Virus genome (UHGV): UHGV-0041117
DNA from: a virus
DNA length: 64,000 bases
Strand: one strand, 5' to 3'
In this document: piece after piece, positions 1 to 63,128 of the stretch
How positions within the stretch are numbered: the stretch's first letter is position 1
How the letters are laid out: each line of letters opens with the position of its first letter
Translations under genes and position numbers: made by a program
Notes under the pieces: generated by a model
Database searches by the model: none
What the model was told of the DNA's origin: nothing
Seen by the model: only the letters and a program-made list of their open reading frames with translations

Positions 1-1
1 G

Positions 2-580
2 GTGGAGCACGTCCCCGGTACGGCGGTTCGCCTGCACGCCCTGGACGGGCACCACTACATCTGCTTCCTGTTGCGTGAAGGGAACCCAAGCGGCGTCCCG
101 TTCCAGACGTTCGGGTTCCGCCTCACACCTGCAGAGTTGCGAGGCATCTTCAACGGGCCCGAGTCCTGCACCGAGTCTGTGTATGTCGACGACCTCGACG
201 GTTCCTCCTCGACGTTGCGCACACCTGATGCCGTTATGGCTTTGGAGCTGTCACCCGCTTCGGATGCGCCTGACTTCCGCAAGTTCTGGACGCGTCTGGA
301 TGATGCCGGCGACCCCCCCTTGCCGGATACGTCTGTCCTGCCGTTGCGGGCAGCGGAACTGTTCGATTTGCGGAAGTATTTCTCGGGGGCCTATGAGGCC
401 CCGGCGTTCGTCCGGCGCGGGCGGGAGATGACAGGCGTCATCATTTCCGGCCTGCCGTACGGTATCGACGCCCGGGGCATCGCCATGCAGATGAATGTTT
501 CTGGCTCGCAGGAGGTGTTCGACGAACACTTCGGCCCGCTCGTCCCTATTTGGCTGCTGGAGGACCGTTATGTTGTGTAA
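2..580 (+). CDS. hypothetical protein, 5'-truncated at window edge
   Basis: ORF open from base 2 with no start codon; 192 aa; stop TAA 578-580; next gene start overlaps it. Confidence 0.45.
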   Translation: MEHVPGTAVRLHALDGHHYICFLLREGNPSGVPFQTFGFRLTPAELRGIFNGPESCTESVYVDDLDGSSSTLRTPDAVMALELSPASDAPDFRKFWTRLDDAGDPPLPDTSVLPLRAAELFDLRKYFSGAYEAPAFVRRGREMTGVIISGLPYGIDARGIAMQMNVSGSQEVFDEHFGPLVPIWLLEDRYVV

Positions 581-878
581 GCTCTACCGTTTGGCCACGA
601 CCTCGCAGCCCGGGAGCCGTGGCCGCAGGCACTACTATGTGGAAGCCGTGCCGGTCCCGCCTACGCTGCAAATCCCTGCCGGGGATGACCCGGTGCAGTT
701 GCAGTGTGCCATCTGGGCGGCGTGCGATGCGTATGCAGACTTCCCGCTCATCGTCGGCTTCGACTGGCGGGAGCCCGACGGCACCCTGTCGTTCTACACG
801 GTAGACCACCCCCGTAATGACAGGCGTCTCGTGGATACGGCGGTCAAGGCGTGGTCGGAAGGCCGCCGTCTCGGATAA
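570..878 (+). CDS. hypothetical protein (~102 aa)
   Basis: ATG at 570 in ATGTTGTGTAA overlapping upstream stop; frame of ORF 495..878; no recognisable motif. Confidence 0.45.
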   Translation: MLCKLYRLATTSQPGSRGRRHYYVEAVPVPPTLQIPAGDDPVQLQCAIWAACDAYADFPLIVGFDWREPDGTLSFYTVDHPRNDRRLVDTAVKAWSEGRRLG

Positions 879-932
879 ACCTGTAACTTCGGGCAGGTTC
901 TCCCTGGGCCTGCCCGGAAAGGAGATGCACCT

Positions 933-1931
933 ATGGCAGATACTCCCCTGCAGCAATGTCTGTACGACTTCGGTGAGGTCTTCGCCGGGAAGAAGTCGGG
1001 CATAACTGTCCCCGGGTTCATGCCCCCCGCACACCCCTTGGTGCCGGAGTACAAGTCCGGGTATGCCTACCCTGAGTGGGCCCGGGACGTGTTCTCGTGG
1101 TTCATTCATAGCACGGAGCCGCTGTTCATCAGCGGCCCGACCGGCTGCGGCAAGAGCAGTTTGGTACGCCAGATAGCCAGCCGTCTGCTCTATCCTGTTT
1201 ATGAGATAACAGGTCATGCCCGGCTTGAGACGCCGGACCTCGTGGGGCACTTCGCCCTGCACGAGGGCTCGACTGTCTGGAAAGACGGCCCGCTCACGGC
1301 CGCCATGCGTAACGGCGGAATCCTGCTGCTCGACGAGGTCGACTTGCTCGACCCGAGCACAGCGACAGGGTTGAACACGGTTCTCGACGGTGCTCCCCTG
1401 TGTATCGCCGAGACGGCGGAGGTGGTGAAGCCCCATCCCGGGTTCCGTTTCATCGCCACGGCCAACACGTTCGGCAGCGGGGACGACAGCGGCCTGTATC
1501 AGGGCACGCTGCGGCTGAACGCGGCCTTCATGGACCGCTTCGTCTGCGTGGAGGCGGACTACCTGCCCGAGCCCGTGGAGGCAGACCTCATAGCCAAGCT
1601 GTGCCCTGACCTGCCGCATGATGTGCGGAAAGGTATCGTCCGCTTCGCCTCTCTCGTGCGTGGTCTGCACAAGCGGGACGACAACACGCTGGAAGCACTG
1701 GCCAAGGTCTCCGGTGCGGAGGCGTTGAACCTGCCCCTCTCGACCCGTTCGCTCTTGCGATGGGCCCGGTGGGTCACGGTGTCCAAGCCGCTGGCCAAGG
1801 CCGGTATCAACCCCACGAAGCATGCCTTGTACCGGGCCTTCGGGTTCCGGTGTGACACTATGGGCCGTCGTGTGCTGGATGAGCTCCTGCAGCGGGCGTT
1901 CGGCGAGACGACCAAGAATAAGGAGGACTAG
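933..1931 (+). CDS. CobS-like MoxR-family AAA+ ATPase
   Basis: Walker A GPTGCGKSS, Walker B ILLLDEVDLL, AAA+ sensor region; RBS AAAGGAGA 8 nt upstream of ATG; same family as aerobic cobaltochelatase CobS / phage CobS homologs. Confidence 0.85.
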   Translation: MADTPLQQCLYDFGEVFAGKKSGITVPGFMPPAHPLVPEYKSGYAYPEWARDVFSWFIHSTEPLFISGPTGCGKSSLVRQIASRLLYPVYEITGHARLETPDLVGHFALHEGSTVWKDGPLTAAMRNGGILLLDEVDLLDPSTATGLNTVLDGAPLCIAETAEVVKPHPGFRFIATANTFGSGDDSGLYQGTLRLNAAFMDRFVCVEADYLPEPVEADLIAKLCPDLPHDVRKGIVRFASLVRGLHKRDDNTLEALAKVSGAEALNLPLSTRSLLRWARWVTVSKPLAKAGINPTKHALYRAFGFRCDTMGRRVLDELLQRAFGETTKNKED

Positions 1932-1933
1932 TC

Positions 1934-2548
1934 ATGGAAGAGACCCGTATTATCAGCAGCGAGAAGCATTTCCTCGGCCTTATCTATCAGGACCCTGAAC
2001 TGTCCAACCCCCGAAAGGAGTACGACCACATCGGCGTCATGCTCTGCGTGCCGCACCGTAACTACAGGCTGGGCGACCGGCAATGCAGTGCGGACGAGAT
2101 GGCCAAGCTCGTCCGGGGCAAGGTCCATCTGCCGCTGTATCTGCTCGACCATAGCGGCGTCACCATGCGCACCACGGACTTCCGCGACCCGTGGGATAGC
2201 GGGCAGGTCGGGTACATCTATGCCGACGTGGCCGCAGCCGAGCGTCTCATGGGCCGCATCCCCAGCGAGAAGGAGCTCCGGGACATCCTGGAGAGCGAGG
2301 TGAAGGAGTATGACTGCTACCTTCGGGGGGATGTCTGGGGGTATAATATCCTCGAAGCTGACCGTGGCCATACCGTGGAGGAGGAAGACCGGGAGTGCAC
2401 GTTGGTGGATTCCTGCTGGGGCATGTACGACTACGCCAAGGAACAGGTGCTGGCCCAGCTTGCCGAGTTCGAGAAGCAGCGCAGACTCACCTACCCCCGC
2501 TGGCTCGCCCTGCCTGGGCTGAATATCGAACCCAAGGAGTTGAAGTAA
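1934..2548 (+). CDS. hypothetical protein (204 aa)
   Basis: ATG 2 nt after CobS-like stop (operon-coupled); no recognised motif. Confidence 0.6.
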   Translation: MEETRIISSEKHFLGLIYQDPELSNPRKEYDHIGVMLCVPHRNYRLGDRQCSADEMAKLVRGKVHLPLYLLDHSGVTMRTTDFRDPWDSGQVGYIYADVAAAERLMGRIPSEKELRDILESEVKEYDCYLRGDVWGYNILEADRGHTVEEEDRECTLVDSCWGMYDYAKEQVLAQLAEFEKQRRLTYPRWLALPGLNIEPKELK

Positions 2549-2561
2549 AGGAGGTACGACC

Positions 2562-3191
2562 ATGAGTTACGAGTTCTCTAATGCCGATGTGTGCATCATC
2601 CTGTCCCCCTGCGGGCTGGAGCGTTTCAACGCCATGGTGGAAGACCTCGACCCGGGCGTCCGGGATGAGGTGCTCGACATCCTGGGCAGTGCTGATGTCG
2701 AAGAGGTCGAAGACCGCGAAGGCAATGTCATGTGGCTCCTGCGTGGTACGTCCTGGGGCGCGACATGGGTAGACGGTGAGTCTGACATCCATGATTTTCT
2801 GTACGCCCAAGATAATCGTGACCACGTCCTCTACATGGTCACTTCCATCGACGGAGAGTACGGCGTCGACGATATTGATGTGGGCAATCTGGACTCCAGC
2901 TTCTACCCGGCCATCGTCAAGCATATCGGCGTGAATGACTTCGGCATGAAGCCTAGCGATGATGGCGACTCGAAGCCGAAGGAACCCGAGAAGTTCGCCC
3001 AGGTGTGGTGGACGCTCGATGATTTGCTCGGTGAACAGTGGCGCCACAATCTCACCGGCCCCTATCCCGGGGATGAGAACGGCGCTCGCCTCGTGCTCGA
3101 AGACCACGAGGAGCGCATCAGGGAGGCCATGATTGCGGCGGGCTGGGATGCCATCAATGAAATTCTGAGCGAGCTCGTGAGTGAGGAGTAA
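2562..3191 (+). CDS. hypothetical protein, paralog 1 of tandem triplicated family (209 aa)
   Basis: RBS AAGGAGG; N-terminal motif NADVCIILSPCGLERF and C-terminal AGWDAI shared with downstream paralogs. Confidence 0.6.
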   Translation: MSYEFSNADVCIILSPCGLERFNAMVEDLDPGVRDEVLDILGSADVEEVEDREGNVMWLLRGTSWGATWVDGESDIHDFLYAQDNRDHVLYMVTSIDGEYGVDDIDVGNLDSSFYPAIVKHIGVNDFGMKPSDDGDSKPKEPEKFAQVWWTLDDLLGEQWRHNLTGPYPGDENGARLVLEDHEERIREAMIAAGWDAINEILSELVSEE

Positions 3192-3195
3192 GTAT

Positions 3196-3582
3196 ATGTT
3201 GCAGCATGGATTCGATGACGCCCATGTGTGCTTCGTCCTTTCCAAGAAAGGCCAGGACCAGTTGGGTAGGTTGCTCCAGGATTTGGCTTCTTTTTCCCGC
3301 CGCGAAGAACTCGGATGTTTCCTGCGTCGTGCGGATAGAGTGGTGCAAGACTCGTGCGGGAATAAGTTGTGGTATTACTATGACGAAGATTGGACGTGCG
3401 ATGTGCCCCTGTCTAATGCGTGGTATCTGCACGGGCTTTTCACCAGTATCGACCCTGCGGATGTCTTGCTCCTGGTGGTGAACAACAACGGCGAGTTTCG
3501 CGCCGGGGAGTTATCTACGCCCCTGGCCCCGAGGGTCTGGCGGACCATCGACTTCACTATCGAGAACGTTGTGGAGGTGTAA
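3196..3582 (+). CDS. hypothetical protein, paralog 2 (short form, ~128 aa)
   Basis: RBS GAGGAG then ATG 3196 (internal M of ORF 3181..3582); N-terminal DAHVCFVLSKKGQDQL and central SID..D..GEF motifs match neighbours. Confidence 0.55.
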   Translation: MLQHGFDDAHVCFVLSKKGQDQLGRLLQDLASFSRREELGCFLRRADRVVQDSCGNKLWYYYDEDWTCDVPLSNAWYLHGLFTSIDPADVLLLVVNNNGEFRAGELSTPLAPRVWRTIDFTIENVVEV

Positions 3583-3583
3583 C

Positions 3584-4117
3584 ATGGGATACTATTCTGA
3601 CGTGTGTTTGGTGCTGTCGACGAAGGGTCTCGAAGAGCTCAACTGCCGCATTGAATCCATGGACAAAGATACGAGATTCTCTGTGGTTGCGTTGCTCGAC
3701 TACTGCAACGCATACGAAGAATACGAGGGGCTGTCCCTCTATCTTTGGACTGATATAAAATGGTACCCGAGCTATCGAGAAATCGGTGCTTTCATGGGCG
3801 CCCTTATGGATATGGATGACTCCTGGTATCGTTTCGTGGAAGTCGGGGAAGACGGCAGCGCAGAATACTTCGGAGATTTGAACAGTGTTTTTCTGCCGTA
3901 TGTGAGGCACTCCATCACCTACACGAGCATGAAGCCCGAACCCCCGAAGCAGTACGCTTCGGTGGGCTGGACTGTCGAAGACCTGACGTATATGTACGGC
4001 ATCCATGAGGATAAGGCTCGGGACATCCTGCTGGATATCGGGGAGGAACTGCATCGTGCCATGTGGCGGGCCGGTTGGGAAGTCATCGACGCGGCTATGA
4101 AGGAGCCCAAGAATTAG
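3584..4117 (+). CDS. hypothetical protein, paralog 3 (~177 aa)
   Basis: RBS GGAGG, ATG 1 nt after upstream stop; N-terminal YSDVCLVLSTKGLEEL, C-terminal W..AGWEVI matches paralog 1. Confidence 0.6.
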   Translation: MGYYSDVCLVLSTKGLEELNCRIESMDKDTRFSVVALLDYCNAYEEYEGLSLYLWTDIKWYPSYREIGAFMGALMDMDDSWYRFVEVGEDGSAEYFGDLNSVFLPYVRHSITYTSMKPEPPKQYASVGWTVEDLTYMYGIHEDKARDILLDIGEELHRAMWRAGWEVIDAAMKEPKN

Positions 4118-4126
4118 GAGGACGAC

Positions 4127-5170
4127 ATGAGCAACAACTACCTGGACAATTCTGTCTACTTGCGGCTGGAAGTTTCCATCTGGACGGGCAAGGCCCGGCT
4201 GTCCCGTGATGACATCCCCAACGCCGACGAGCTGCCGCCGGATACGCTCGCCACCCTGGGTACCAAGCGTATCTTTGACCCGGCCAAGCTGCGCCCGTTC
4301 GGAGCGCTCAAGACCAGAGCTGTCCGGGCTTGCGACCAGCATGGGGTCCGGTGCATGGGCGGGTGGATTGTCGAGACCGGCGCCGCCCAGCGGTTGGCCG
4401 CTGAGTTGCAGGTCATCCGGGACGAGTTCGACCGCACCAAGTCCCAGTTTGTTTCCGACTACGACGCCGGAGCCGACGCCTGGCTCGCGCAGTACCCGGA
4501 GTGGGCCAGTATCCTGCGCCCGGCCTTGCCCGAGTCTTATGAGTTGCACAAGCGCTTCGCCTTCCGGTGGCAGGTGCTGGAGGTCAAGCCTGTGGAGTCG
4601 CCGGAGTACGGCGGCACGGCAGCGGCCGACATCGGGGGACTTGAGGACACCGCTCTGGAGGCCGTGGCCGGGGAGGTCAAGGAGCTGCTGGGGCGTGGCT
4701 TCACCAATGAGCGTACGTCCATCACAACAAAGAGCTTGCGTCCGCTCAATGCGTTGGCAGACAAGTGCGACAACTACTCGTTCACCCGCCCCGAGATGTC
4801 GACCCTGGCCGATGTGTTCCGGGAGCTCGCCAAGTGCGAGCCCACGCCTGGCACCCTGTCCCTGGTGCGTACGACCCTCACGGCGCTGTCCACACCGGCC
4901 GGGCTCCGGTCTGTCACCTTCGGGGCCACGGCCCAGTCCATCACGAAGGGGATGACGGACCCCGCCATGATGGGGCTCGGCAGTTTCATGCCCGACCCGG
5001 AGGAAGAAGCCGCGCCGGAGCCGCTCGGCGCTATCGTCCCCCCGTCCGGCATCGTGGTCGACCCGGAGCCAGCTATGCTGCAGCAGGTACCCGTGCCCCC
5101 CGAACCGGAGGAGCCCAAGCAGGACGCCGTGGAAGGGAGCCTCAACGACATCATTTCCATGTTGATGTAG
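4127..5170 (+). CDS. hypothetical protein, possibly DUF3150-like (partner of phage CobS/CobT pairs)
   Basis: RBS AGGAGG; 347 aa; acidic Pro/Glu-rich C-terminus; family assignment is inference from gene context, not a motif I can verify. Confidence 0.55.
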   Translation: MSNNYLDNSVYLRLEVSIWTGKARLSRDDIPNADELPPDTLATLGTKRIFDPAKLRPFGALKTRAVRACDQHGVRCMGGWIVETGAAQRLAAELQVIRDEFDRTKSQFVSDYDAGADAWLAQYPEWASILRPALPESYELHKRFAFRWQVLEVKPVESPEYGGTAAADIGGLEDTALEAVAGEVKELLGRGFTNERTSITTKSLRPLNALADKCDNYSFTRPEMSTLADVFRELAKCEPTPGTLSLVRTTLTALSTPAGLRSVTFGATAQSITKGMTDPAMMGLGSFMPDPEEEAAPEPLGAIVPPSGIVVDPEPAMLQQVPVPPEPEEPKQDAVEGSLNDIISMLM

Positions 5171-5227
5171 CACCACAACTGCGGGGCATGCTTCGGCAGG
5201 CATGTCCCGCCGCATAGGAGTAGAGAG

Positions 5228-7048
5228 ATGAAACACGACCTTGCAGAAGTCGTCCTGACGTGCCGGGCCCTGTCGGCACAATATGGCGTCGATGTGTTCC
5301 CGACTGGGAAGGAAGCTTACACGACCGTCGATTCCCATGGGCGGTATGTCATCGGGGTCCCGTTCATCCCTGACATGGGGGATGGCGAATGGGCCATGCT
5401 GCGTGGGTACATCGACCACGAGTGCGGTCATGTGAAGTACACGGACATGGCCGGTTCGGACGCCGGGTTGGATGGTGTGCTCCGTAAGTATTTTGCCGGG
5501 GCCCCCACGATACGCCCGGAGGAGCGTCACTTCATGGAGCAGCAGCTTAAGCCATGGGTGCATACGGTGTGGAACATCTTCGAGGACATCCGGGTCGAAC
5601 ATCTTATGGGGCTCGACTTTCCTGGGTGTAAGTACAACTTCAAGAAGTTGGCGATAGAAGTATTCAACGAAAGCAACGCCTTAGACTCTTTGGCTGGGAT
5701 ATACAACTCCCTCTCCACCGCCTTACTCCGTGATGCGATGACGCTGTATCTGCTCTACGCAGTCCGGGCCGCAGTGGTCCCTGAGCTTCGCCCGGCCAAA
5801 GATGCCCTGAGCAAGGAACTTTATGGGGGTCTCCGGTATAGGGGCAAAAACATAGATATGGAGGTGTATGGGCGCGACATAAACGCTCTGGCTAGATTGT
5901 ATGCCTACGACCCGAAAGACTCTTTCGATGCCACGTATCAGTTTATGTTACTGGTCCGGGACTTGCTGTCTGCGTATGGAGACGACAATGACAGTGTCAG
6001 TATCAGAACGTACGCCAATTCCCTCGGGGCGTTGGATACAAAGACTGCCGGGAAGTCGAAGTCTGAACAGGACACTACCGTCAAGGTAGCCTGCGGAAAC
6101 AATGCTGCTGGTGTTGGGCGTAGCACGGACGTTTCCAGCATGACGAAGCACGAGATGTCATCGAGGGCCCTGCGGCCCGCCGGTAGTGATAAGCGAGCAC
6201 CCAGGGAGATTTCTTCCGCGCTCCAAGAATTGCAGTCTTTTCAGGCGTACGACTCGGTCGGTGAGTTCCAGGCCGGGTCTAGGGAATCTCTCTCGCGGAA
6301 GTCGCGACAGATCATGGAACTCCAGCCTGACATGGTGTCCAGTGTGGATTCCATAGCAGCATCCGCAGGAGGTCGTCTGGCAGCCGTGCTGCAGTCCGAG
6401 ACGTATCAGCGTTGCCGCTCCGGGTGGAGTGGCCGGCTCGATGGCCGTAGGCTCCACAGGGCTGGGGTCGGGGATGGGCGCGTATTCTCCCGGCGTGCCG
6501 AACGCAAGGCTCTCCATACGGAAGTCATCATTCTCTACGACGCCTCCGGCAGTATGCAGTACACGACAGTGAAGACTGGTTGGGATAACGCCGGCTATGC
6601 TGCGGTAGCTTCTTATGGACTGCTCAAGGCGCTGCGTAATATTCCGCATGTCCGTAGTGCGGTATGGACCTTCCAGAATATCGCCTGTGTGCCCATGGCC
6701 AAATTCGATATGCCCATACCGGACAAGTATTTGCGCCCTTATGGCGGCACTCCGTTAGGAGCGAGCGTGTTTCGTCTGCTCGGTGAGTACACGTCACAGC
6801 CTGACTGGCGGAAAATCTTGCTTATCATGTCCGACGGGGTTCCTGATAGTAATACGCTTTTCAGGAGTGCTCTCACTGCGGCCGAGCGTTCCGGGGTAGA
6901 GACGTATGGTATCGGTATCCGAACGGACGCCATGAATTTCTTCTTCCCGGAAGAGCGCCGTCTTGAGCTCTATGACCTCCGCAAGCTCGTGCCTGGCATG
7001 TTTACTATGATGCAACGGGCCATGCTCAAGGGGGTCCACCATGCCTAA
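5228..7048 (+). CDS. CobT-like von Willebrand factor A (vWA) domain protein
   Basis: 606 aa; C-terminal vWA with MIDAS-like VIILYDASGSMQ and LIMSDGVPD motifs; classic partner of CobS-like ATPase. Confidence 0.8.
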   Translation: MKHDLAEVVLTCRALSAQYGVDVFPTGKEAYTTVDSHGRYVIGVPFIPDMGDGEWAMLRGYIDHECGHVKYTDMAGSDAGLDGVLRKYFAGAPTIRPEERHFMEQQLKPWVHTVWNIFEDIRVEHLMGLDFPGCKYNFKKLAIEVFNESNALDSLAGIYNSLSTALLRDAMTLYLLYAVRAAVVPELRPAKDALSKELYGGLRYRGKNIDMEVYGRDINALARLYAYDPKDSFDATYQFMLLVRDLLSAYGDDNDSVSIRTYANSLGALDTKTAGKSKSEQDTTVKVACGNNAAGVGRSTDVSSMTKHEMSSRALRPAGSDKRAPREISSALQELQSFQAYDSVGEFQAGSRESLSRKSRQIMELQPDMVSSVDSIAASAGGRLAAVLQSETYQRCRSGWSGRLDGRRLHRAGVGDGRVFSRRAERKALHTEVIILYDASGSMQYTTVKTGWDNAGYAAVASYGLLKALRNIPHVRSAVWTFQNIACVPMAKFDMPIPDKYLRPYGGTPLGASVFRLLGEYTSQPDWRKILLIMSDGVPDSNTLFRSALTAAERSGVETYGIGIRTDAMNFFFPEERRLELYDLRKLVPGMFTMMQRAMLKGVHHA

Positions 7049-7262
7049 GAGGTACAACCGCAACAAGGACATGGACAAGTACATCCGCTCTCTGCTGGCC
7101 AGGGGATGGGTGTATATCAGCGGCAACAAGCACCACAAACTGGAGGCCCCTTCGGGGGCCCTGGTGATATTCCCCACATCGACGCGCCCTGGGGTGTACA
7201 GCAGGGCGCTCCAGAATATCAAGGCCCAGGTCAAACGGGCCGAAGGAGGGTATGATGCCTGA
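7041..7262 (+). CDS. HicA-like (YcfA family) putative mRNA interferase toxin
   Basis: 73 aa; ARGWVYISGNKHHKLEAPSGALVIFPTSTRPGVYSRALQNIKAQV fits the HicA pattern GW..GSHH..P.H...G.L..IlKQ; ATG overlaps cobT-like stop (ATGCCTAAG). Confidence 0.6.
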   Translation: MPKRYNRNKDMDKYIRSLLARGWVYISGNKHHKLEAPSGALVIFPTSTRPGVYSRALQNIKAQVKRAEGGYDA

Positions 7263-7455
7263 GCTCAAGCGTCGGTTCTGGGCACTCTTCGAGCAGCATC
7301 ACATGGACTTCTACCCTGAGCGCCGGGAGTTCGCCGTACGCTGGATGGAGCGGGCCAGAGACAGGATGGACATGGGTGAGGATGAGCAGGCGGCGGTCGA
7401 TGCCGCGCTCGAATTGGTCAGACAGGGTGTCGAAGTGGTTGACACCCGAAGTTAA
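7252..7455 (+). CDS. small acidic helical protein, candidate antitoxin partner of the HicA-like gene
   Basis: 67 aa; ATGATGCCTGA overlap with HicA-like stop (toxin-first order as in hicAB); no HicB RNase-H-like signature seen. Confidence 0.45.
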   Translation: MMPELKRRFWALFEQHHMDFYPERREFAVRWMERARDRMDMGEDEQAAVDAALELVRQGVEVVDTRS

Positions 7456-7463
7456 ATGTTAGA
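7439..7463 (+). promoter_or_regulatory. sigma70-like promoter candidate (TTGACA -35 within GTTGACACC)
   Basis: TTGACA 7439-7444, weak -10 (GATGAT/TAGATG) about 17 bp downstream; GTTGACACC recurs at 15925. Confidence 0.3.
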
Positions 7464-7492
7464 TGATGCGACGTAAGCGATTTACGTCGCAT
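7464..7492 (+). promoter_or_regulatory. perfect 12-bp stem-loop at operon boundary / 5'-UTR of next gene
   Basis: GATGCGACGTAA-GCGAT-TTACGTCGCATC; no U-tract, followed by RBS AGGAGG of gene 7512. Confidence 0.4.
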
Positions 7493-7511
7493 CACCATTA
7501 GGAGGTTCTTT

Positions 7512-8114
7512 ATGGGCTACACCAAGGAAGAAATCGCGGCTATGAGTCCACTCGAGCAGATGACCAAGGTCATCCTGCCCGCACTGTTGAAGAGGCTCTT
7601 GACTGTCGAGGAGCGTCTCAATGCGCTCCCGGATGGCGAGGAGCTCGCCCAATTGAAGCAGCGCGTGGATGCGCTGGAGAAAGAACTCGCCGGGCTCAAG
7701 GAAGCTGCGCCGAAGAAGCGTGCCCCCCGCAAGAAGAAGGGCGAAGACGCACCGGCCCCCGTGGCCACGGCCGAACCTGCGCCGGCCCCCACGCAGCTTC
7801 CCCCCACGCCTCCGGTTGACGGTGCCCTGCCGCCGGAGCCGGAGCCGACCATCATGTTCACGTACGACTCTGACGCGGATGAGTTCCGCCCCATCATTGC
7901 CTATGGGCATGAGCTCACCGGCGAGACGGTGGCCATGGCCAGGTACGCTCTGGCTATGTGCAAGAACAACGTGGATGAGGCCGCTGCCGTCTCGCAGCTT
8001 TCTGCCGAGTTCGTGCGTTACGCCGGGAAGCTCGACATCGAGAAGCGCCGTATCCTGGGAGCCAAGTTCCCAGTGGCGACGCAGAGCATCGCACCTTACC
8101 TGCTGACGGAATAG
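7512..8114 (+). CDS. hypothetical protein with coiled-coil N-terminus and Pro/Ala-rich linker
   Basis: RBS AGGAGG; 200 aa. Confidence 0.6.
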   Translation: MGYTKEEIAAMSPLEQMTKVILPALLKRLLTVEERLNALPDGEELAQLKQRVDALEKELAGLKEAAPKKRAPRKKKGEDAPAPVATAEPAPAPTQLPPTPPVDGALPPEPEPTIMFTYDSDADEFRPIIAYGHELTGETVAMARYALAMCKNNVDEAAAVSQLSAEFVRYAGKLDIEKRRILGAKFPVATQSIAPYLLTE

Positions 8115-8172
8115 GGCATTCACGAACATGTAGACTGGGGGGGCTGGACAAGCCCCCCGTAAAGGAGCGAGC

Positions 8173-10254
8173 ATGCCGATATATGCTGTAGACTTCGAGA
8201 CTTTCTGGGACAGCAAAGACTACACGCTGTCCAAGATGGGGCCCATCGAATACATACGCGACAAGAGATTCACGCCCCAGATGATGAGCGTCCAGTGCGT
8301 TGACGACCCCGGGCAGCCGTACGTGTGGGATAATATCAAGGACAGAGCGACTGTCCGTCACGCTTTGGAAATGCTGGAGACGTCGCCTAACGTGTCGTGG
8401 TGTGGCCACAACATGCATGGGTTCGATGCCCTCATTTTCTCCGAGCACTACGGGTTCCACCCGCACAGGATTCTAGATACCATCTGCATGGCTCGGTGGT
8501 GCGGCCTGGCTCGTCTCGGAAGGGAGAGCCACGAGGCGCTGACGGAGATGCTCGGGCACGGGAAGAAGAAGGCTGGCACCGTGGTCAGTAATGGCAAGCG
8601 GTGGCCCGATGACTTCACCCCCGAAGAGCAGGCTTTCTTCAAGCAATACTGCGCCGATGACACGAGCCAATGCGCGGCCAACGCTGCTGCCATGCTGCCG
8701 TACATGACTGACGACGCCCTCCGTTTCATGTCCATTACCGCTCGCATGGCGACCGAGCCCATGTTCGAGTTGGACGAAGAGATGTTGGAGGGGTACATCC
8801 GGGAACTCGACGCCGCCGCCGAGAAGTCCCGGCAGGAGCTGCTCGGCATGTTCCACTTCCCGGACATGACCTCGTTCCTGTCAGCTATCCGCAGCAGTGA
8901 CCGGTTCGCTGTCATGCTCCGGGCCCTGGGGGTCGAGCCCCCCATGAAGGTGAGCGAGGCCAAGACCAAGACCTACTTCGGGAAGCTGCAGGCCCAGGCT
9001 GATGCGGGGAGCGCCGAGGCTGCTCAGGCCCTGGCCAATGCCGAGCCGGTGATGACATACGCATTCAGCAAGACCGACCTCGACTTTCTGGACTTGCTGC
9101 ATAGCGACGACCCCCGTGTGTCGCTGCTTGTCCAGACACGCCTGGAGCACAACAGTTCCATCGCCCGCAGCCGGGCTGTTACGCTGCTCAAGTTCGCCCG
9201 GGACAAGCGCCCTGTGCCGGTCATGCTCTCTACGTGGAAGGCGGCTACGGGACGGTACTCCGCTGGTGTCAGCGAGGGAGCTTCTGACGCGCTCCAGTTC
9301 CAGAATCTCAGTAAGCGCGACCCATCCAAGCTGACGTTGCGGCGCGCTATCAAGGCCCCGAAGGGGCGCTGCATCGTGGCTGTAGACTCTTCCCAGGTAG
9401 AAGCCCGGTGCCTGGCGTTCGTGGCCAAGGAGATGCTCCTTGTCCAGCAGTTCGCTCAGGGACGGGACCCGTACGCCGAGCTGGCTGAGGTGGTCTTCGG
9501 AGTGCCGGCCAAGGACATCCACGACGGGGCCAAGGCCCATGACCCGAAGATGAAGATGTATCGTAATGTGGGGAAGAAGGCCATCCTGTCCGCAGGGTAC
9601 GGTGTCGGGGCCCGCAAGTTCTCCGACACGCTGCTGCGTGACGGCGTGCGTATGTCGGATGACCTCGACAAGCACAGGGAGATGGCGTTCAATGCCCACG
9701 CTGTGTACCGTGCACAGAACCCGAACATCGTGGCCCTCTGGCGCACCTGTGAACGGGTCATCCAGGCGCTGGTCAATGGGGAATCCGGCCAGTTCGGCGG
9801 CCCCAACGACGACCTGTTCTCGTTCGGTGTCATCGGGGTCGGCCCCCGGCAGGACATCCTTGTCCCGTCCGTGTGGTCTAAGAGCGGGTACATCCTGCGC
9901 TATCCCAATCTGCGGTGCGAGTACGACGGTGGGAGCAAGCCGCAGTATTTCTACGACAGGCCCCGAGGGAAGAACCTCGTGAAGACCAAGATTTACGGGG
10001 GGTCCCTCACAGAGAATATCATCCAGAGCTTCGCCTTCGTCGACATCCTCATGTGGCAGGGGTGCCGGATGGATGAGCATGGCGTCCCCCTGGCGGCCAA
10101 CATCCATGACTGCTGGGCTGCTGTGCCCCGGATTGAAGAGGCCGAGGCGACTCTCCACACGATGGAATACTGGATGTCTCAGGTCCCGGCGTACGCCGCT
10201 GGGCTTCCCATCGCCTGCGAAGGTGAGATTGGTTACGACTTCACGGTCGTGTAG
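8173..10254 (+). CDS. family A DNA polymerase with N-terminal 3'-5' exonuclease domain
   Basis: Exo motif AVDFETF; Pol motif A VAVDSSQVEARCLA, motif B RNVGKKAILSAGYGVG, motif C ANIHDCWA. Confidence 0.9.
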   Translation: MPIYAVDFETFWDSKDYTLSKMGPIEYIRDKRFTPQMMSVQCVDDPGQPYVWDNIKDRATVRHALEMLETSPNVSWCGHNMHGFDALIFSEHYGFHPHRILDTICMARWCGLARLGRESHEALTEMLGHGKKKAGTVVSNGKRWPDDFTPEEQAFFKQYCADDTSQCAANAAAMLPYMTDDALRFMSITARMATEPMFELDEEMLEGYIRELDAAAEKSRQELLGMFHFPDMTSFLSAIRSSDRFAVMLRALGVEPPMKVSEAKTKTYFGKLQAQADAGSAEAAQALANAEPVMTYAFSKTDLDFLDLLHSDDPRVSLLVQTRLEHNSSIARSRAVTLLKFARDKRPVPVMLSTWKAATGRYSAGVSEGASDALQFQNLSKRDPSKLTLRRAIKAPKGRCIVAVDSSQVEARCLAFVAKEMLLVQQFAQGRDPYAELAEVVFGVPAKDIHDGAKAHDPKMKMYRNVGKKAILSAGYGVGARKFSDTLLRDGVRMSDDLDKHREMAFNAHAVYRAQNPNIVALWRTCERVIQALVNGESGQFGGPNDDLFSFGVIGVGPRQDILVPSVWSKSGYILRYPNLRCEYDGGSKPQYFYDRPRGKNLVKTKIYGGSLTENIIQSFAFVDILMWQGCRMDEHGVPLAANIHDCWAAVPRIEEAEATLHTMEYWMSQVPAYAAGLPIACEGEIGYDFTVV

Positions 10255-10263
10255 GAGGACATC

Positions 10264-10950
10264 ATGCCGTTCGTTTTCTCGCCCAGCAACATGCAGTCGT
10301 TCCGAGACTGCCCGCTCCGGTTCTGGGGACAGAGCATATCCAAAGAAATCAAATGGAAGGCCAGCCAGCAGAAGAGCCGGGGCCAGGTGCTGCATTCCAA
10401 TATCCAGAAATGCCTGCTGCAGGGATGGCAGGACGCCATCTCATGGGACGCACAGGTCGATGTGGATTATGTCCGCAACCGTGTCGCCGAAGTCCGTGCG
10501 GCCATGGCCTCCGGCGCCTCGTGCTACATCGAGCATGAGCTCGTCATCACGAAGCGCGGCGGCAAGACAGGATGGTGGGACGCTGATGCCGTACTGCGGG
10601 CCAGGGCCGACGCTTTTGTCATCCCCCCCGATGCAGCATCCCCGGCCGTCCTCATCGACATCAAGTCCGGGAAGAAGTGGGACTCGGATGATTTCCAGCT
10701 CCGGGTAGAATGCTTCCTTGTCCACCTGCTCTACTCCCGCCCTGTGGTCCGCTACGAATACTGGTATGCGGACATCGGCGAGACCGTGGATGGGCTCATC
10801 GACTTCCGCAATGGGCTCGCTCCGGTGCAAGACATTCTGGACTGTATGCAGACCATGGGCCTTGCCATCAAGAACAATGATTTCACGCCCACCCCGAATA
10901 AGTTCTGCCGGTGGTGCGACTTCAACAATACCCCCAAATGCATGAGGTAG
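10264..10950 (+). CDS. PD-(D/E)XK nuclease, Cas4/RecB-like exonuclease with Cys cluster
   Basis: N-terminal FRDCPLRF Cys, core LIDIKSGKK, C-terminal FCRWCDFNNTPKC; RBS AGGAGG. Confidence 0.75.
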   Translation: MPFVFSPSNMQSFRDCPLRFWGQSISKEIKWKASQQKSRGQVLHSNIQKCLLQGWQDAISWDAQVDVDYVRNRVAEVRAAMASGASCYIEHELVITKRGGKTGWWDADAVLRARADAFVIPPDAASPAVLIDIKSGKKWDSDDFQLRVECFLVHLLYSRPVVRYEYWYADIGETVDGLIDFRNGLAPVQDILDCMQTMGLAIKNNDFTPTPNKFCRWCDFNNTPKCMR

Positions 10951-10953
10951 ACT

Positions 10954-11412
10954 ATGGGACGCGAAAAGTTCAAGCCGCACACTCTGGTGCATGAAAGCTG
11001 GAACATGAATAACAGTGGTGATGTGTACAACGCCATATGTCGCATGGCGCAGACCGGCGGTAATCAAGCGTTGGTCGGCAAGCATATCGGGCTGAACTTC
11101 CCCGGACAGATGGAATGCGTGCTGTTTCTGGAACATAACGGCAGACCTCTGACGTTCAACATCACACCTGTGATGGATGAAACCCGGTACATCATCGACG
11201 GTCTCGGCTACGATATGCGTTGCCCTGATGTCGTGCTCACCGCGTCTGACCGTTACGGGTACGTCACGGCTTACACCATTTATGCCCATGCTGACTACGA
11301 CATCGTCGGGTCCATCACGTTCAACATCGACGACCTGGTCGCCGTGCAGTTCAAAGTCTTTGAAGATAACAAGAAGGATTCCCGTCCCTGGTACAAGAGG
11401 TTGTTCTCGTGA
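10954..11412 (+). CDS. hypothetical protein (152 aa)
   Basis: ORF with ATG 3 nt after upstream stop. Confidence 0.55.
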   Translation: MGREKFKPHTLVHESWNMNNSGDVYNAICRMAQTGGNQALVGKHIGLNFPGQMECVLFLEHNGRPLTFNITPVMDETRYIIDGLGYDMRCPDVVLTASDRYGYVTAYTIYAHADYDIVGSITFNIDDLVAVQFKVFEDNKKDSRPWYKRLFS

Positions 11413-11708
11413 CGCCCGAGGGTAAGGTCAAGGCCAAAGTCAAGAAAGTGCTTACCGAGGCAGGGGTATGGTATGCCATGCCCCTGGGCTCGACCTTCGG
11501 TAAGCGAGGGGTGCCGGACTTCGTGGCTTGCTGCGATGGCCGGTTCCTCTCTATCGAGACCAAGGCGGGTAAGGGTAAGACCACGGCGCTGCAGGAGTAC
11601 GAGATGCAGCGGATACGCAATGCTGGCGGAACAGCCATCGTGGTCGATGACAGCAACGTGGGCGCCCTGGCGGAGTGGCTGGATAGTTGGAGACGAGGCG
11701 ATGGGTAG
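11409..11708 (+). CDS. VRR-NUC domain nuclease
   Basis: GTG start; GVPDFVACCDGRFLSIETKAGKGKTTALQEYEM matches VRR-NUC PD-(D/E)XK signature. Confidence 0.8.
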   Translation: MTPEGKVKAKVKKVLTEAGVWYAMPLGSTFGKRGVPDFVACCDGRFLSIETKAGKGKTTALQEYEMQRIRNAGGTAIVVDDSNVGALAEWLDSWRRGDG

Positions 11709-12318
11709 AGCAGCAGACATATCTCGGGAGTTGGGTAAGACAGTAGCGGACATGGCCCGGGAGCATGGGCTGGAGCCAGACATAGTTCATAGCCGGCTGC
11801 GCCTTGGGTGGACGCTGGACAAAGCATTACGGACCCCAGTACGGGAGCGCATCCGGGCGGTAGATGCTGATGGAAATGTGACGACGTATGCTCGCCTCGC
11901 TGTAGAGTGCGGCATGAGTCTGAGCACTTTGCGTAATCGTTTGAATAATGGCTGGTCATTGGAGGACGCTCTCAGCATCCCGCGCCGCAAACACACGTCG
12001 GATTACGACGCGAAGTATGGCCTCCCTATCTCCAAATGGTTGGCAGAATCAGGCGTGACTCTGTCGCAATTTCGCAGCCGCATCGGTCATGGGTGGAGCC
12101 CGGAACGGGCGGCTCGTGAGCCTCTCAGCCTTGCGACTGTGCTGACGCAGTACGTGAAGGAACCAGATGCCACCAGGGTCCGAGACCTATGCGTAGAGCA
12201 TGATGTGCCGTTAGATGTCTGTGTCTACCGTTTGCGCGCAGGGTGGGAAATAGACAAGGCGTGCACTGTCCCGGTGCAACGTAAGAAGCGCCGGGCCAAG
12301 ACCGCTGAGGAGGATTAG
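11701..12318 (+). CDS. putative DNA-binding protein with four tandem ~45-aa repeats (RLxxGW[ST]x[ED][KR]A motif)
   Basis: ATG 11701 overlaps VRR-NUC stop; repeats HSRLRLGWTLDKAL / RNRLNNGWSLEDAL / RSRIGHGWSPERAA / VYRLRAGWEIDKAC. Confidence 0.55.
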   Translation: MGRAADISRELGKTVADMAREHGLEPDIVHSRLRLGWTLDKALRTPVRERIRAVDADGNVTTYARLAVECGMSLSTLRNRLNNGWSLEDALSIPRRKHTSDYDAKYGLPISKWLAESGVTLSQFRSRIGHGWSPERAAREPLSLATVLTQYVKEPDATRVRDLCVEHDVPLDVCVYRLRAGWEIDKACTVPVQRKKRRAKTAEED

Positions 12319-13947: not shown

Positions 13948-13975
13948 CACAAGTGGGGGATTTCGATTAACTATG
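13944..13975 (+). promoter_or_regulatory. promoter candidate (TTGACA ... TTAACT) overlapping CAAGTGGGGG motif
   Basis: ATTGACACAAGTGGGGGATTTCGATTAACT upstream of gene 13997. Confidence 0.3.
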
Positions 13976-13996
13976 ATTAACCAAGGAGCAAGCACA

Positions 13997-15922: not shown

Positions 15923-15925
15923 TGG

Positions 15926-15954
15926 TTGACACCGGCTCAAGTACAGAGTAAACA
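15926..15954 (+). promoter_or_regulatory. sigma70-like promoter candidate upstream of primase-helicase
   Basis: GTTGACACC with TTGACA -35, 17-bp spacer, TAAACA. Confidence 0.3.
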
Positions 15955-63071: not shown

Positions 63072-63128
63072 AACATGCCTCCTGACCGCGACCGTACAAA
63101 CAAGTAGGGGGCATGTCAAGTGTGGGGG

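What the first reader, a model, noticed from the sequence alone, without database searches (positions are those of the whole stretch)
933..7455. Phage-borne MoxR/CobS-like ATPase + CobT-like vWA operon coupled to a HicA-like RNase pair, with three inserted paralogs: candidate NTP-dependent conflict (defence or counter-defence) system
Nine genes sit in one tightly packed, RBS-linked forward operon with gaps of -8 to +57 nt. They encode a CobS-like AAA+ ATPase, a 204-aa unknown protein, three tandem paralogous small proteins, a DUF3150-like protein, a CobT-like vWA protein, a HicA-like toxin whose ATG overlaps the vWA stop, and a small helical partner whose ATG overlaps the HicA stop. MoxR-vWA pairs are established NTP-driven switch modules in predicted conflict systems, and HicA is an mRNA interferase. 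Fusing these into one phage operon, with hairpins at 5181-5210 and 7464-7492 and a promoter-like box only after the last gene, suggests one functional unit: an ATPase/vWA-gated RNase or its regulator. Possible roles are superinfection exclusion, abortive-infection-like control, or anti-defence. CobS/CobT homologs in phages are already annotated, but I am not aware of a described function for this extended architecture.
Basis: partly seen in the sequence, partly recalled or inferred. Interest (0 to 1): 0.8.

Follow-up and report, generated by a model that had tools for sequence, protein, structure and literature searches.

The report
Phage copy of plasmid anti-restriction module
A roughly 64-kb tailed phage carries the ATPase/DUF3150/vWA gene trio that conjugative plasmids use in their host-defence-evasion operon, here loaded with fast-changing small acidic genes and followed by a HicA-like RNase pair, so it is most likely an early counter-defence module rather than a vitamin B12 enzyme or a new kind of system.

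Summary
All nine ORFs exist as described. They are RBS-linked with gaps of -11 to +57 nt, and the three tandem paralogs and the hairpins are real. The 73-aa protein is HicA-like by profile match and by predicted fold, and it keeps the catalytic Gly28/His31.

The core is not cobaltochelatase. It scores far below the CobS equivalog cutoff, has no CobT N-domain, and the window has no CobN. Instead it matches the AAA+ / DUF3150 / HExxH-vWA trio found on 1153 plasmids and many genomic islands. The ATPase is 38% identical to the IncC Vcrx089-position protein. Published work shows that vcrx089-090 gives evasion of type I restriction on entry into a new host.

The stretch between the ATPase and DUF3150 is a variable cargo slot in all these elements, holding 0 to about 4.7 kb. 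In IncC it holds vcrx090-ssb-bet-exo. Here it holds p204 and three acidic paralogs, which differ by clean cassette indels from a phage whose DUF3150 protein is 96% identical.

The HicA-like/p67 pair stays coupled to the vWA gene across this phage clade, but appears in only 1 of 59 bacterial loci and in none of five plasmid or island loci examined. An ATPase-gated RNase therefore remains speculative.

Verdict: a new variant of a known, mechanistically unsolved anti-defence module. Interest is moderate.

The parts
573..878 (+). Conserved small upstream gene (about 101 aa from the ATG at 573). It is co-directional, and its start overlaps the stop of ORF 2-580.
   Evidence: Homologs lie upstream of the ATPase gene in clade relatives L008-L014, at E 1e-9 to 1e-12. 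GC3 is 0.77. No family hit.
888..917 (+). 13-bp stem-loop in the 54-nt gap, ending just before the ATPase gene's RBS (AAGGAG).
   Evidence: RNA fold gives -27 kcal/mol with z only -1.6. It is kept, with base changes, in L001.
933..1931 (+). MoxR/CobS-class AAA+ ATPase (332 aa). It is the closest relative of the IncC Vcrx089-position ATPase.
   Evidence: AAA_5 at 7e-26, plus a weak CbbQ_C hit. Walker A GPTGCGKS at 68-75 and Walker B ILLLDE at 130-135. 38% identity and 2e-67 to the pKAZ3 protein. PDB matches: CobS 1.8e-28, NorQ 2e-27, CbbQ. TIGR01650 scores 94 against a cutoff of 558.
1934..2548 (+). p204: member of a large unnamed family of mobile-element accessory proteins (slot cargo).
   Evidence: phrog_6186 at 6e-20. 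960 clusters, no Pfam match. Elsewhere it occurs without the trio, in jumbo-phage or mobile-element accessory regions. Missing from relative L010.
2562..3191 (+). Paralog 1 (209 aa, pI 4.1): N-domain plus C-terminal helical domain.
   Evidence: BLASTP to paralog 3 at 1e-18. Its C-terminal domain is absent from the L001 ortholog.
3196..3582 (+). Paralog 2 (128 aa, pI 4.8): N-domain only.
   Evidence: BLASTP to paralog 1 at 8e-8. The start is re-set to the RBS-preceded ATG.
3584..4117 (+). Paralog 3 (177 aa, pI 4.4): the form conserved across the clade. The whole gene is missing from near-identical L001.
4127..5170 (+). DUF3150 protein (347 aa, pI 4.7): the constant partner of the ATPase and the vWA protein.
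   Evidence: PF11348 at 3e-58. 30% identity to the pKAZ3 protein. Found in 1153 plasmids. The only hit among 50,697 phage records is really a Salmonella genomic island.
5181..5210 (+). 13-bp stem-loop in the 57-nt gap between DUF3150 and the vWA gene.
   Evidence: -25 kcal/mol, z -2.4. Kept in L001 but absent in L008 and L014.
5228..7048 (+). 606-aa protein: N-terminal HExxH (zincin-like) domain, a Ser/Ala/Thr/Gly-rich low-complexity linker, and a C-terminal vWA domain with a complete MIDAS site.
   Evidence: HECGH at 64-68, EDIRVE at 119-124, DASGS at 438-442, GGTP at 506-509, SDG at 535-537. E65, H68, E119, D120, E124, D438, S440, S442, T508 and D536 are invariant in 7 diverse homologs. The vWA domain matches NorD at 7e-12 and CobT at 2e-11. 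Full-length 25% identity to the pKAZ3 598-aa protein.
7041..7262 (+). HicA-like small basic protein (73 aa, pI 10.3). Its ATG overlaps the vWA stop by 8 nt.
   Evidence: PADLOC HicA-like at 1.2e-13. 17 of 44 relatives hit PF07927. AF2 plus Foldseek give 5yrz_B, 1whz and 6hpb_A. Gly28 is present and His31 is invariant in the family alignment.
7252..7455 (+). p67: small acidic protein (pI 5.1). Its ATG overlaps the HicA-like stop by 11 nt. It is the candidate partner or antitoxin.
   Evidence: 52-55% identical across the clade with 30 invariant residues, and identical in L001. No Pfam, PHROG or PDB sequence match.
7439..7494 (+). Promoter-like box (TTGACA-17-GATGAT) overlapping a perfect 13-bp hairpin (7464-7494). 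This is a possible 3' boundary of the unit.
   Evidence: z -5.0. The hairpin is weakened in L001 and absent in L008 and L014, though a TTGACA is also present at this position in L008.

Best explanation
The block is a phage-borne version of a mobile-element entry module. Its constant core has three parts: a MoxR/CobS-class AAA+ ATPase, a DUF3150 protein, and a roughly 600-aa protein that joins a zincin-like HExxH domain to a MIDAS-bearing vWA domain.

Between the ATPase and DUF3150 lies a cargo slot that holds different genes in different elements. In this phage the slot holds p204 and three acidic paralogs. In this phage clade a HicA-like RNase with a small acidic partner has also been attached after the vWA gene.

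Most likely function (inferred): neutralising host defences, such as restriction systems, early in infection.

Likely mechanism (inferred from the families): the ATPase forms a ring motor, as CobS, NorQ and CbbQ do. The vWA/MIDAS protein docks it onto a target protein. ATP hydrolysis then remodels or inactivates that target, possibly with help from the HExxH domain. DUF3150 would be a third subunit. The slot proteins would be exchangeable effectors, or independent anti-defence genes that share the same early transcript.

Shown here: homology, architecture, conserved motifs, cassette turnover and synteny. Shown elsewhere: the anti-restriction phenotype of vcrx089-090. Everything else is inference.
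For: - The ATPase is 38% identical (2e-67) to the pKAZ3 IncC protein at the vcrx089 position. That is closer than any real phage 'CobS' (30-34%) and closer than solved CobS (1.8e-28).
- The DUF3150 and vWA partners are also homologous to the plasmid ones, at 2e-23 and 7e-26.
- Gene order on pKAZ3 and on a Salmonella island is AAA - 302 aa - ssb - bet - exo - DUF3150 - vWA.
- Published experiments: deleting vcrx089-090 lowers transfer into a type I R-M+ recipient and is complemented in the recipient (PMC7498323). The same deletion gives 424-906-fold more restriction by EcoBI/EcoKI (PMC11602122).
- The trio co-occurs in 59 bacterial loci. The slot is under 600 nt in 33, 600-2000 nt in 14 and at least 2000 nt in 12. 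Slot contents vary: bet/exo in 25-31 loci and vcrx090 in 14.
- Walker A/B, HExxH with a downstream Glu, and MIDAS residues are conserved.
- The slot differs by three clean cassette indels from a phage whose DUF3150 protein is 96% identical.
- The slot proteins are strongly acidic, pI 4.1-5.1.
- The paralog family also sits directly upstream of the ATPase in four Desulfovibrionaceae loci whose vWA proteins are only about 23-30% identical.
- The module lies at the head of the early/replication arm of a tailed phage.
Against: - No homolog of Vcrx090, the second gene needed in IncC, is detectable. phmmer finds none, and hhalign probabilities are below 2% for every slot gene.
- In the IncC TnSeq only vcrx089-093 were depleted, not the DUF3150 or vWA genes (PMC7498323). 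The trio may therefore not act as one machine in restriction evasion.
- 38% identity does not guarantee the same function.
- The anti-restriction phenotype is known only for conjugation, and its mechanism is unknown.
- The position next to PolA, a PD-(D/E)XK nuclease and an Hjc-like gene fits a DNA-metabolism role equally well.
- One clade member (L014) has N instead of the first His of HExxH.
- No PADLOC or other family hit gives the slot genes a function.
Confidence: 0.45

Rival explanations
1. DNA-metabolism or assembly chaperone. The AAA+/vWA pair would mature or remodel a phage or plasmid replication/recombination complex (or a virion part), and has nothing directly to do with host defences. 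The slot genes and HicA/p67 would be unrelated neighbours.
For: - The module sits immediately before p200, PolA, a PD-(D/E)XK nuclease, Hjc-like, SNF2 and primase-helicase genes.
- In plasmids and ICEs the slot very often carries ssb, bet and exo.
- An analogous AAA - metallopeptidase-vWA (DUF2201) pair lies next to an Hjc-like gene in another phage, L113.
- Known MoxR-vWA pairs (NorQD, CbbQO, CobST) are maturation chaperones (and established knowledge).
- A MoxR-vWA pair with an N-terminal peptidase was proposed as a virion-assembly chaperone in jumbo phages (PMC7824862).
Against: - The only experimental phenotype for a close homolog is restriction evasion in the recipient cell (PMC7498323, PMC11602122).
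- The module is shared by phages, plasmids and ICEs that have no virion or replisome in common.
- The fast cassette turnover in the slot is more typical of conflict genes than of core replication factors.
Confidence: 0.22
2. All nine genes form one machine in which the ATPase/vWA switch gates or regulates the HicA-like RNase, with p67 as its inhibitor, for superinfection exclusion, abortive-infection-like control or anti-defence.
For: - The HicA-like start overlaps the vWA stop and the p67 start overlaps the HicA-like stop.
- This coupling is kept in clade relatives whose vWA proteins are only 33% identical.
- The charges fit a basic toxin and an acidic partner, and Gly28/His31 are intact.
- Two looser independent co-occurrences exist: L037 has a HicA-like gene about 0.8 kb after the trio, and L113 has one about 1.8 kb after an AAA/peptidase-vWA pair.
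Against: - In the same clade the flanking p200, PolA and PDDEXK genes are equally syntenic, so the linkage may simply be inherited.
- The HicA-like gene is absent from 58 of 59 bacterial trio loci and from the five plasmid or island loci scanned, L002-L005 and L025.
- The HicA-like family occurs in unrelated early operons, with a CP76 repressor and radical SAM gene, in a DnaB module, or before an ankyrin protein.
- p67 has no detectable similarity to HicB.
- No case of a MoxR-vWA-controlled HicA was found in the literature searches.
Confidence: 0.1
3. Auxiliary metabolic genes. Viral CobS/CobT would join the host CobN to boost cobalt insertion and vitamin B12 supply.
For: - PHROG labels: phrog_249 'porphyrin biosynthesis' at 1e-60 and phrog_5298 'cobalamin biosynthesis protein' at 3e-12.
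- Full-length alignment to solved CobS at 1.8e-28.
- The usual reading of phage cobST pairs (PMC8651126).
Against: - TIGR01650 scores 94 bits against a cutoff of 558.
- CobT_C scores 15.6 against a cutoff of 21, and there is no CobT N-domain hit.
- The vWA domain is as close to NorD as to CobT.
- The obligate partner DUF3150 has no place in the cobalamin pathway.
- The same trio sits on 1153 mostly conjugative plasmids, next to ssb-bet-exo.
- No CobN-like protein was found among the large ORFs tested.
Confidence: 0.04

Closest known systems
IncC/IncA plasmid and SXT/R391 ICE 'hde' (host defence evasion) operon and its flanking genes (vcrx089-vcrx093 plus the downstream DUF3150 and vWA genes); AntiDefenseFinder system vcrx089_090
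   Same: - A homologous AAA_5/CbbQ_C-type ATPase (38% identity), DUF3150 protein (30%) and 598-606-aa HExxH-vWA protein (25%, full length).
- The same order: ATPase - variable genes - DUF3150 - vWA.
- Co-directional, tightly packed genes on a mobile element.
   Different: - No Vcrx090, ssb, bet or exo in the slot. It holds p204 and three clade-restricted acidic paralogs instead.
- The element is a tailed phage, not a conjugative element.
- A HicA-like/p67 pair has been added after the vWA gene.
- No function has been shown for the DUF3150 and vWA genes, even in IncC.
MoxR-class AAA+ / vWA chaperone pairs (CobS-CobT, NorQ-NorD, CbbQ-CbbO, RavA-ViaA)
   Same: The ATPase aligns over its full length to CobS and over the AAA core to NorQ and CbbQ. 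The partner has a MIDAS vWA domain matching NorD and CobT at about 1e-11.
   Different: - It fails the CobS equivalog threshold.
- The N-terminal domain of the vWA protein is an HExxH domain not matched by solved CobT or NorD.
- A third constant subunit (DUF3150) replaces CobN or the enzyme client.
- The context is a mobile element rather than a metabolic operon.
HicAB type II toxin-antitoxin systems, including phage-borne ones such as mycobacteriophage Adephagia gp91/gp90
   Same: - The fold is alpha-beta-beta-beta-alpha.
- Gly28 and His31 fall at the same positions as the catalytic pair described for Adephagia gp91 (PMC11373665).
- A basic small protein is followed by an overlapping acidic small gene.
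   Different: - The partner has no sequence similarity to HicB and no recognisable DNA-binding domain.
- The pair is translationally coupled to a 606-aa vWA gene inside a long early operon.
- Toxicity is untested.
Jumbo-phage MoxR - (metallopeptidase-vWA) pairs and DUF2201_N/DUF2201 proteins
   Same: An AAA+ ATPase together with a vWA protein that has an N-terminal HExxH-type domain, in a phage (PMC7824862; L113).
   Different: It is a different vWA/peptidase family, with no DUF2201 hit. It has the DUF3150 partner, and it lies in the early/replication arm rather than among structural genes.

Membership tests
Aerobic cobaltochelatase CobS/CobT | The ATPase reaches the CobS equivalog score (TIGR01650). 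| tested here: not met
   94.4 bits against a cutoff of 558.55.
Aerobic cobaltochelatase CobS/CobT | The partner has the CobT N-terminal and CobT_C domains above threshold. | tested here: not met
   CobT_C scores 15.6 bits against a cutoff of 21, and there is no CobT N-domain hit. The profile matches solved CobT only over the vWA domain, no better than NorD.
Aerobic cobaltochelatase CobS/CobT | A CobN subunit or cobalamin pathway context. | tested here: not met
   No CobN-like hit among the large ORFs scanned. Not every ORF of the window was scanned. The neighbours are replication genes.
MoxR-class AAA+ ATPase with vWA partner | An AAA_5 domain with intact Walker A and Walker B. | tested here: met
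   AAA_5 at 7e-26. GPTGCGKS at 68-75 and ILLLDE at 130-135.
MoxR-class AAA+ ATPase with vWA partner | A co-encoded vWA protein with a complete MIDAS motif (DxSxS...T...D). | tested here: met
   D438, S440, S442, T508 and D536 are invariant in 7 homologs. The genes co-occur in 59 bacterial loci.
IncC/SXT hde-type module (vcrx089_090 and neighbours) | A Vcrx089-like ATPase. | tested here: met
   38% identity over 312 aa, 2e-67, to the pKAZ3 protein at that position.
IncC/SXT hde-type module (vcrx089_090 and neighbours) | A Vcrx090 homolog next to the ATPase. | tested here: not met
   No phmmer hit. hhalign probability is at most 0.6% for p204, the paralogs and p67 against a Vcrx090 alignment.
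IncC/SXT hde-type module (vcrx089_090 and neighbours) | DUF3150 and a roughly 600-aa HExxH-vWA protein downstream on the same strand. | tested here: met
IncC/SXT hde-type module (vcrx089_090 and neighbours) | Relieves restriction on entry into a new host. | not testable with these tools
   Needs plating or transfer assays. Known only for IncC plasmids (PMC7498323, PMC11602122).
HicAB toxin-antitoxin | The HicA fold with the conserved Gly and catalytic His. | tested here: met
   PADLOC HicA-like at 1.2e-13. 17 of 44 relatives hit PF07927. Foldseek top hits are 5yrz_B, 1whz and 6hpb_A. Gly28 is present and His31 is invariant.
HicAB toxin-antitoxin | A cognate HicB antitoxin (partial RNase H-like fold, usually with a DNA-binding domain). 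| tested here: inconclusive
   p67 has no Pfam, PHROG or PDB sequence match.
HicAB toxin-antitoxin | Toxicity that the partner neutralises. | not testable with these tools
   Needs expression experiments.
MoxR-vWA ternary conflict systems (Kaur et al. 2020) | A bpMoxR-type ATPase with a beta-propeller, VMAP or effector third component. | tested here: not met
   bpMoxR PF20030 scores 18.2 bits against a cutoff of 27. No such partner domains were found in any of the nine proteins.

The most novel reading that the evidence does not exclude
The AAA+/DUF3150/HExxH-vWA trio may be a general, exchangeable-payload engine of mobile elements. It would load, activate or deliver whatever small effectors sit in its slot against host restriction and other defence complexes. 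Those effectors would be Vcrx090 in IncC and the acidic paralog family and p204 here. In this phage clade the same engine would additionally control a HicA-like RNase held in check by p67. That would make it a programmable ATP-driven anti-defence platform shared by phages, plasmids and ICEs.
Probability: 0.12. Interest if true: 0.8.

Novelty: new variant of a known kind. Interest (0 to 1): 0.5.

Why it matters
The vcrx089-090 anti-restriction function is experimentally real, but its mechanism is unsolved. The roles of the DUF3150 and HExxH-vWA genes that sit downstream of the operon on more than a thousand resistance plasmids have not been addressed.

A compact phage version gives an independent, genetically tractable system to ask three questions:
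- Is the trio one machine?
- What does it target?
- Are the slot genes its payload?

Three features make this version useful. Its slot cargo is different. A phage whose DUF3150 protein is 96% identical offers natural cassette knock-outs. Related chromosomal modules exist in Desulfovibrionaceae.

The result also warns that 'cobS/cobT' or 'porphyrin biosynthesis' labels on phage genes of this type should not be counted as vitamin B12 auxiliary metabolism.

Tried and rejected
1. Cobaltochelatase reading: rejected on equivalog and domain thresholds and on context.
2. Direct Pfam, NCBIfam or PDB sequence match of the 73-aa protein to HicA: none. A profile of its relatives reached solved HicA chains only at E about 0.5. 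The call rests instead on the PADLOC profile, family members hitting PF07927, and the predicted fold.
3. Slot genes as hidden homologs of Vcrx090 or of each other: BLASTP, phmmer and hhalign were all negative.
5. p204 as an obligate partner of the ATPase: rejected, since family members occur without the trio.
6. Hairpins as conserved unit boundaries: only the one before PolA keeps its position across the clade.
7. Promoter scan: not above chance.
8. Nucleotide-level relatives among deposited phages: none beyond 97-nt fragments.
9. An alignment-based scan with the HicA-like family failed for lack of a conserved stretch, as did the DUF3150 alignment on genome contigs.
10. Literature: 'DUF3150' appears in one unrelated preprint only. 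No paper links HicA with MoxR/vWA.

Full report
**1.

Their third-position GC is 0.66-0.85 and second-position GC is 0.35-0.48, the coding signature of this 60% GC genome. The long antisense ORFs are shadows.

Spacing between genes is +2, +13, +4, +1, +9, +57, -8 and -11 nt. Most starts have a GGAGG-type RBS. Paralogs 2 and 3 are better started at the RBS-preceded ATGs at 3196 and 3584.

The unit is not bounded at 933. A conserved 101-aa gene (573-878) and ORF 2-580 lie just upstream on the same strand and are conserved in relatives. The window as a whole looks like a complete tailed-phage genome of about 64 kb:
- An early/replication arm on the + strand (1-19217) carries PolA with 3'-5' exonuclease, a PD-(D/E)XK nuclease, an Hjc-like resolvase, an SNF2 helicase and a DUF927 primase-helicase.
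- A structural arm on the - strand carries terminase, head-tail adaptor, major head protein and internal virion proteins.

**2. What the proteins are**

*933-1931.* This is an AAA_5 ATPase (7e-26) with intact Walker A and B motifs. It aligns over its full length to solved CobS (1.8e-28) and over its core to NorQ, CbbQ and midasin. It is not a CobS ortholog, scoring 94 bits against the TIGR01650 cutoff of 558.

*4127-5170.* This is a clear DUF3150 protein (3e-58).

*5228-7048.* This protein has three parts:
- An N-terminal domain has HECGH (64-68) and a downstream EDIRVE (119-124). In a seven-sequence alignment spanning phages, an island and plasmids, E65, H68, E119, D120 and E124 are invariant.
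- A low-complexity linker follows.
- A C-terminal vWA domain has invariant MIDAS residues D438, S440, S442, T508 and D536.

The vWA domain is as similar to NorD (7e-12) as to CobT (2e-11), and nothing in the PDB matches the N-domain by sequence. 'CobT-like' is therefore true only at the level of the MoxR-partner vWA class.

*7041-7262.* The 73-aa protein has no direct Pfam hit. Several lines make it HicA-like:
- It matches PADLOC's 61-position 'HicA-like' profile end to end (1.2e-13).
- A full HMMER scan of 1.84 billion representatives found 50 relatives. Of the 44 aligned sequences (the query plus 43 relatives), 17 hit PF07927 HicA_toxin.
- Its AF2 model (pLDDT 82.8) is alpha-beta-beta-beta-alpha. 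Solved HicA toxins rank 1, 3 and 4 in the Foldseek search: S. pneumoniae HicA (probability 0.96), T. thermophilus 1whz and E. coli HicA.
- His31 is invariant in the family and Gly28 is present. These are the same positions reported as catalytic for the phage Adephagia HicA-like toxin (PMC11373665).
- It is basic (pI 10.3).

*7252-7455.* The overlapping 67-aa protein is acidic (pI 5.1). It is highly conserved in the clade, with 52-55% identity and 30 invariant residues. It resembles nothing known, including HicB.

*p204.* In contrast, p204 belongs to a large unnamed family of 960 clusters. That family occurs in accessory-gene regions of jumbo phages and other mobile elements without the trio.

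**3. The core is a known mobile-element module**

DUF3150 is almost absent from deposited phages. The single hit among 50,697 records is really a Salmonella genomic island. It is present on 1153 plasmids, 976 of them conjugative.

On these plasmids and islands the order is always AAA ATPase - variable genes - DUF3150 - vWA protein of about 600 aa. On the IncC plasmid pKAZ3 it reads 'CobS' - 302 aa - SSB - Bet - Exo-position gene - DUF3150 - 598 aa.

The window's proteins compare with the pKAZ3 proteins as follows:

| Protein | Identity to pKAZ3 | E-value |
|---|---|---|
| ATPase | 38% | 2e-67 |
| DUF3150 | 30% | 2e-23 |
| vWA protein | 25%, end to end | 7e-26 |

The ATPase is closer to this plasmid type than to any real phage 'CobS', which reach 30-34% identity.

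This is the region around the published hde (host defence evasion) operon of IncC plasmids:
- vcrx089 (AAA_5 + CbbQ_C) and vcrx090 are needed in the recipient to escape type I restriction.
- ssb-bet-exo repair CRISPR-Cas breaks.
- A primer in vcrx094 yields cDNA covering the upstream genes, so these genes are co-transcribed (PMC7498323).

In pKAZ3, deleting vcrx089-090 raised EcoBI/EcoKI restriction 424-906-fold (PMC11602122). vcrx089_090 is now an AntiDefenseFinder system (PMC11724313) and has been flagged in Pseudomonas phages (bioRxiv 10.64898/2026.02.22.706922). By gene order, vcrx094 and the next gene are the DUF3150 and vWA genes. That assignment is my inference.

**4. The slot and its cargo**

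A scan of bacterial genomes with the vWA alignment gave 80 loci. In 59 of them all three core genes lie on one strand. The distance from the ATPase to DUF3150 is under 600 nt in 33, 600-2000 nt in 14 and at least 2000 nt in 12. In most loci DUF3150 and the vWA gene lie within about 500 nt of each other.

Slot or flank contents vary. Bet is found in 25 loci, Exo in 31, SSB in 24 and Vcrx090 in 14. A 395-aa protein lies upstream of the ATPase in the loci inspected and is present in 17 loci. The space between the ATPase and DUF3150 is thus a recurrent insertion site for variable genes.

In the window the slot is 2.2 kb and holds four acidic proteins (pI 4.1-5.1). None is a detectable homolog of Vcrx090 or of the others.

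Compared with IMG/VR contig 3300045988_171930, the slot differs by three clean gene-level indels at stop/RBS/start junctions. In that contig the DUF3150 protein is 96% identical, the vWA protein 88% and p67 100%. The three indels are:
- a 91-aa ORF present only in the relative;
- the C-domain of paralog 1 present only in the window;
- the whole of paralog 3 present only in the window.

More distant clade members (DUF3150 40-45% identical) have one paralog plus a different 105-aa gene. In some, a paralog lies upstream of the ATPase, and one lacks p204.

The paralog family also lies immediately upstream of the ATPase in four Desulfovibrionaceae loci whose vWA proteins are only about 23-30% identical. 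The family is therefore truly associated with the module. This also hints at the host group.

**5. The HicA-like pair**

In every clade member examined, the HicA-like start overlaps the vWA stop and the p67-like start overlaps the HicA-like stop. That is real conserved coupling. However, p200, PolA and the PD-(D/E)XK gene downstream are equally syntenic, so the arrangement may just be inherited.

Outside the clade the pair is absent:
- from the more distant viral locus L015;
- from the five plasmid or island loci scanned (L002-L005 and L025);
- from 58 of 59 bacterial loci.

The single exception is L037. There a HicA-like gene lies about 0.8 kb after the trio and overlaps an ankyrin-repeat gene.

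Other members of the HicA-like family sit in unrelated phage early operons:
- next to a CP76-type repressor and a radical-SAM gene;
- in a DnaB module;
- in L113, about 1.8 kb after an AAA / DUF2201 metallopeptidase-vWA pair and an Hjc-like gene.

I read the pair as a promiscuous early-gene cassette that this clade has attached to the module. A direct functional link to the ATPase/vWA is possible but unsupported.

**6. Mechanism**

*Shown here:* homology to the plasmid module; intact ATPase, MIDAS and HExxH motifs; a variable slot with rapid cassette turnover; an early-arm location.

*Shown elsewhere:* vcrx089-090 relieves restriction.

*Inferred:* the ATPase ring, docked by the vWA/MIDAS protein and joined by DUF3150, remodels or disables a host defence complex early in infection. 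The acidic slot proteins are either payloads or independent anti-defence genes on the same transcript. The HicA-like protein is an RNase restrained by p67.

*Against this:* there is no Vcrx090 homolog. The IncC TnSeq did not flag the DUF3150 or vWA genes. The location suits a replication/recombination chaperone equally well.

The remainder is unassigned.

**7. RNA features**

Each + strand gap of more than 50 nt in this region holds a stem-loop. Three have 13-bp stems (888-917, 5181-5210, 7464-7494), and a shorter G-rich one lies at about 8137-8158. None has a U-tract. Only the one before PolA keeps its position across the clade.

The TTGACA-17-GATGAT box at 7439-7467 is the best promoter-like site on the + strand. 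However, the scan as a whole is at chance level. The 3' boundary after p67 is plausible but unproven.

**8. Novelty and verdict**

The extended architecture, however, is a phage variant of a described and experimentally supported anti-restriction operon backbone, not a new kind of system.

What is new here:
- A complete trio in a phage clade. This is rare: 10 IMG/VR loci (9 distinct contigs) and no true phage among 50,697 deposited phage records.
- A different and fast-changing cargo, including a module-associated orphan family.
- A conserved HicA-like/p67 appendix.

I rate it a new variant of a known kind, with interest 0.5.

Noticed in passing
window 21145-24474 (- strand): A 1109-aa ORF in the structural arm carries an LPD38 'large polyvalent protein associated' domain (9e-12). 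It has no PHROG hit. It may be an ejected polyvalent or internal virion protein, a class often linked to anti-defence.
   Followed up: no
window 62364-63119 (- strand); also L022 4681-5343: An Rv2179c-like 3'-5' exoribonuclease domain protein (1e-29). It is conserved in clade relatives.
   Followed up: no
window 888-917, 5181-5210, 7464-7494, 8137-8158: Every + strand intergenic gap of more than 50 nt in the first 8.2 kb contains a GC-rich stem-loop without a U-tract. The one just before PolA is conserved in position but not in sequence in L008, L014 and L022. These may be RNA processing, stability or termination elements.
   Followed up: partly
window 1934-4130 versus L001 3298-4980: Two phages that are near-identical in this region (DUF3150 protein 96% identical) differ by three precise gene or domain cassette indels at stop/RBS/start junctions in the slot.
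   Followed up: yes
L031, L034, L045, L059 (Desulfovibrionaceae MAG contigs): Compact loci read: 395-411-aa protein - paralog-family protein - ATPase - DUF3150 - vWA. L031, L045 and L059 also carry a 107-aa gene between the ATPase and DUF3150, with a weak WGR-like hit in L059 (4e-4, below cutoff). The best bacterial matches of the vWA protein are also Desulfovibrionaceae, which suggests the host group.
   Followed up: partly
L037 522-6576 (- strand), next to the trio: Three large ORFs (1119, 504 and 395 aa) lie directly upstream of, and divergent from, the trio in a Rhodospirillaceae chromosome. From recalled sequence features only, they look like a type I R-M hsdR/hsdM/hsdS set. They were not scanned against any family.
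   Followed up: no
P0006 (2972 aa), P0016, P0036, P0037, P0039: Several giant proteins contain 2-7 separate stretches matching the 73-aa HicA-like protein, so the domain also occurs as repeats inside very large proteins.
   Followed up: no
L019 6075-7576 and L020: In an unrelated contig of about 294 kb, a p204-family gene sits next to a DUF3846 gene and a HicA_toxin-hitting 75-aa gene, among many small unannotated ORFs. This is another accessory-gene island that mixes the same small families.
   Followed up: no
L113 840-5216: Another phage contig has AAA ATPase - DUF2201_N/DUF2201 (metallopeptidase-vWA) - 369 aa - Hjc-like - HicA-like family member. This arrangement is analogous but not homologous to the window's.
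   Followed up: partly
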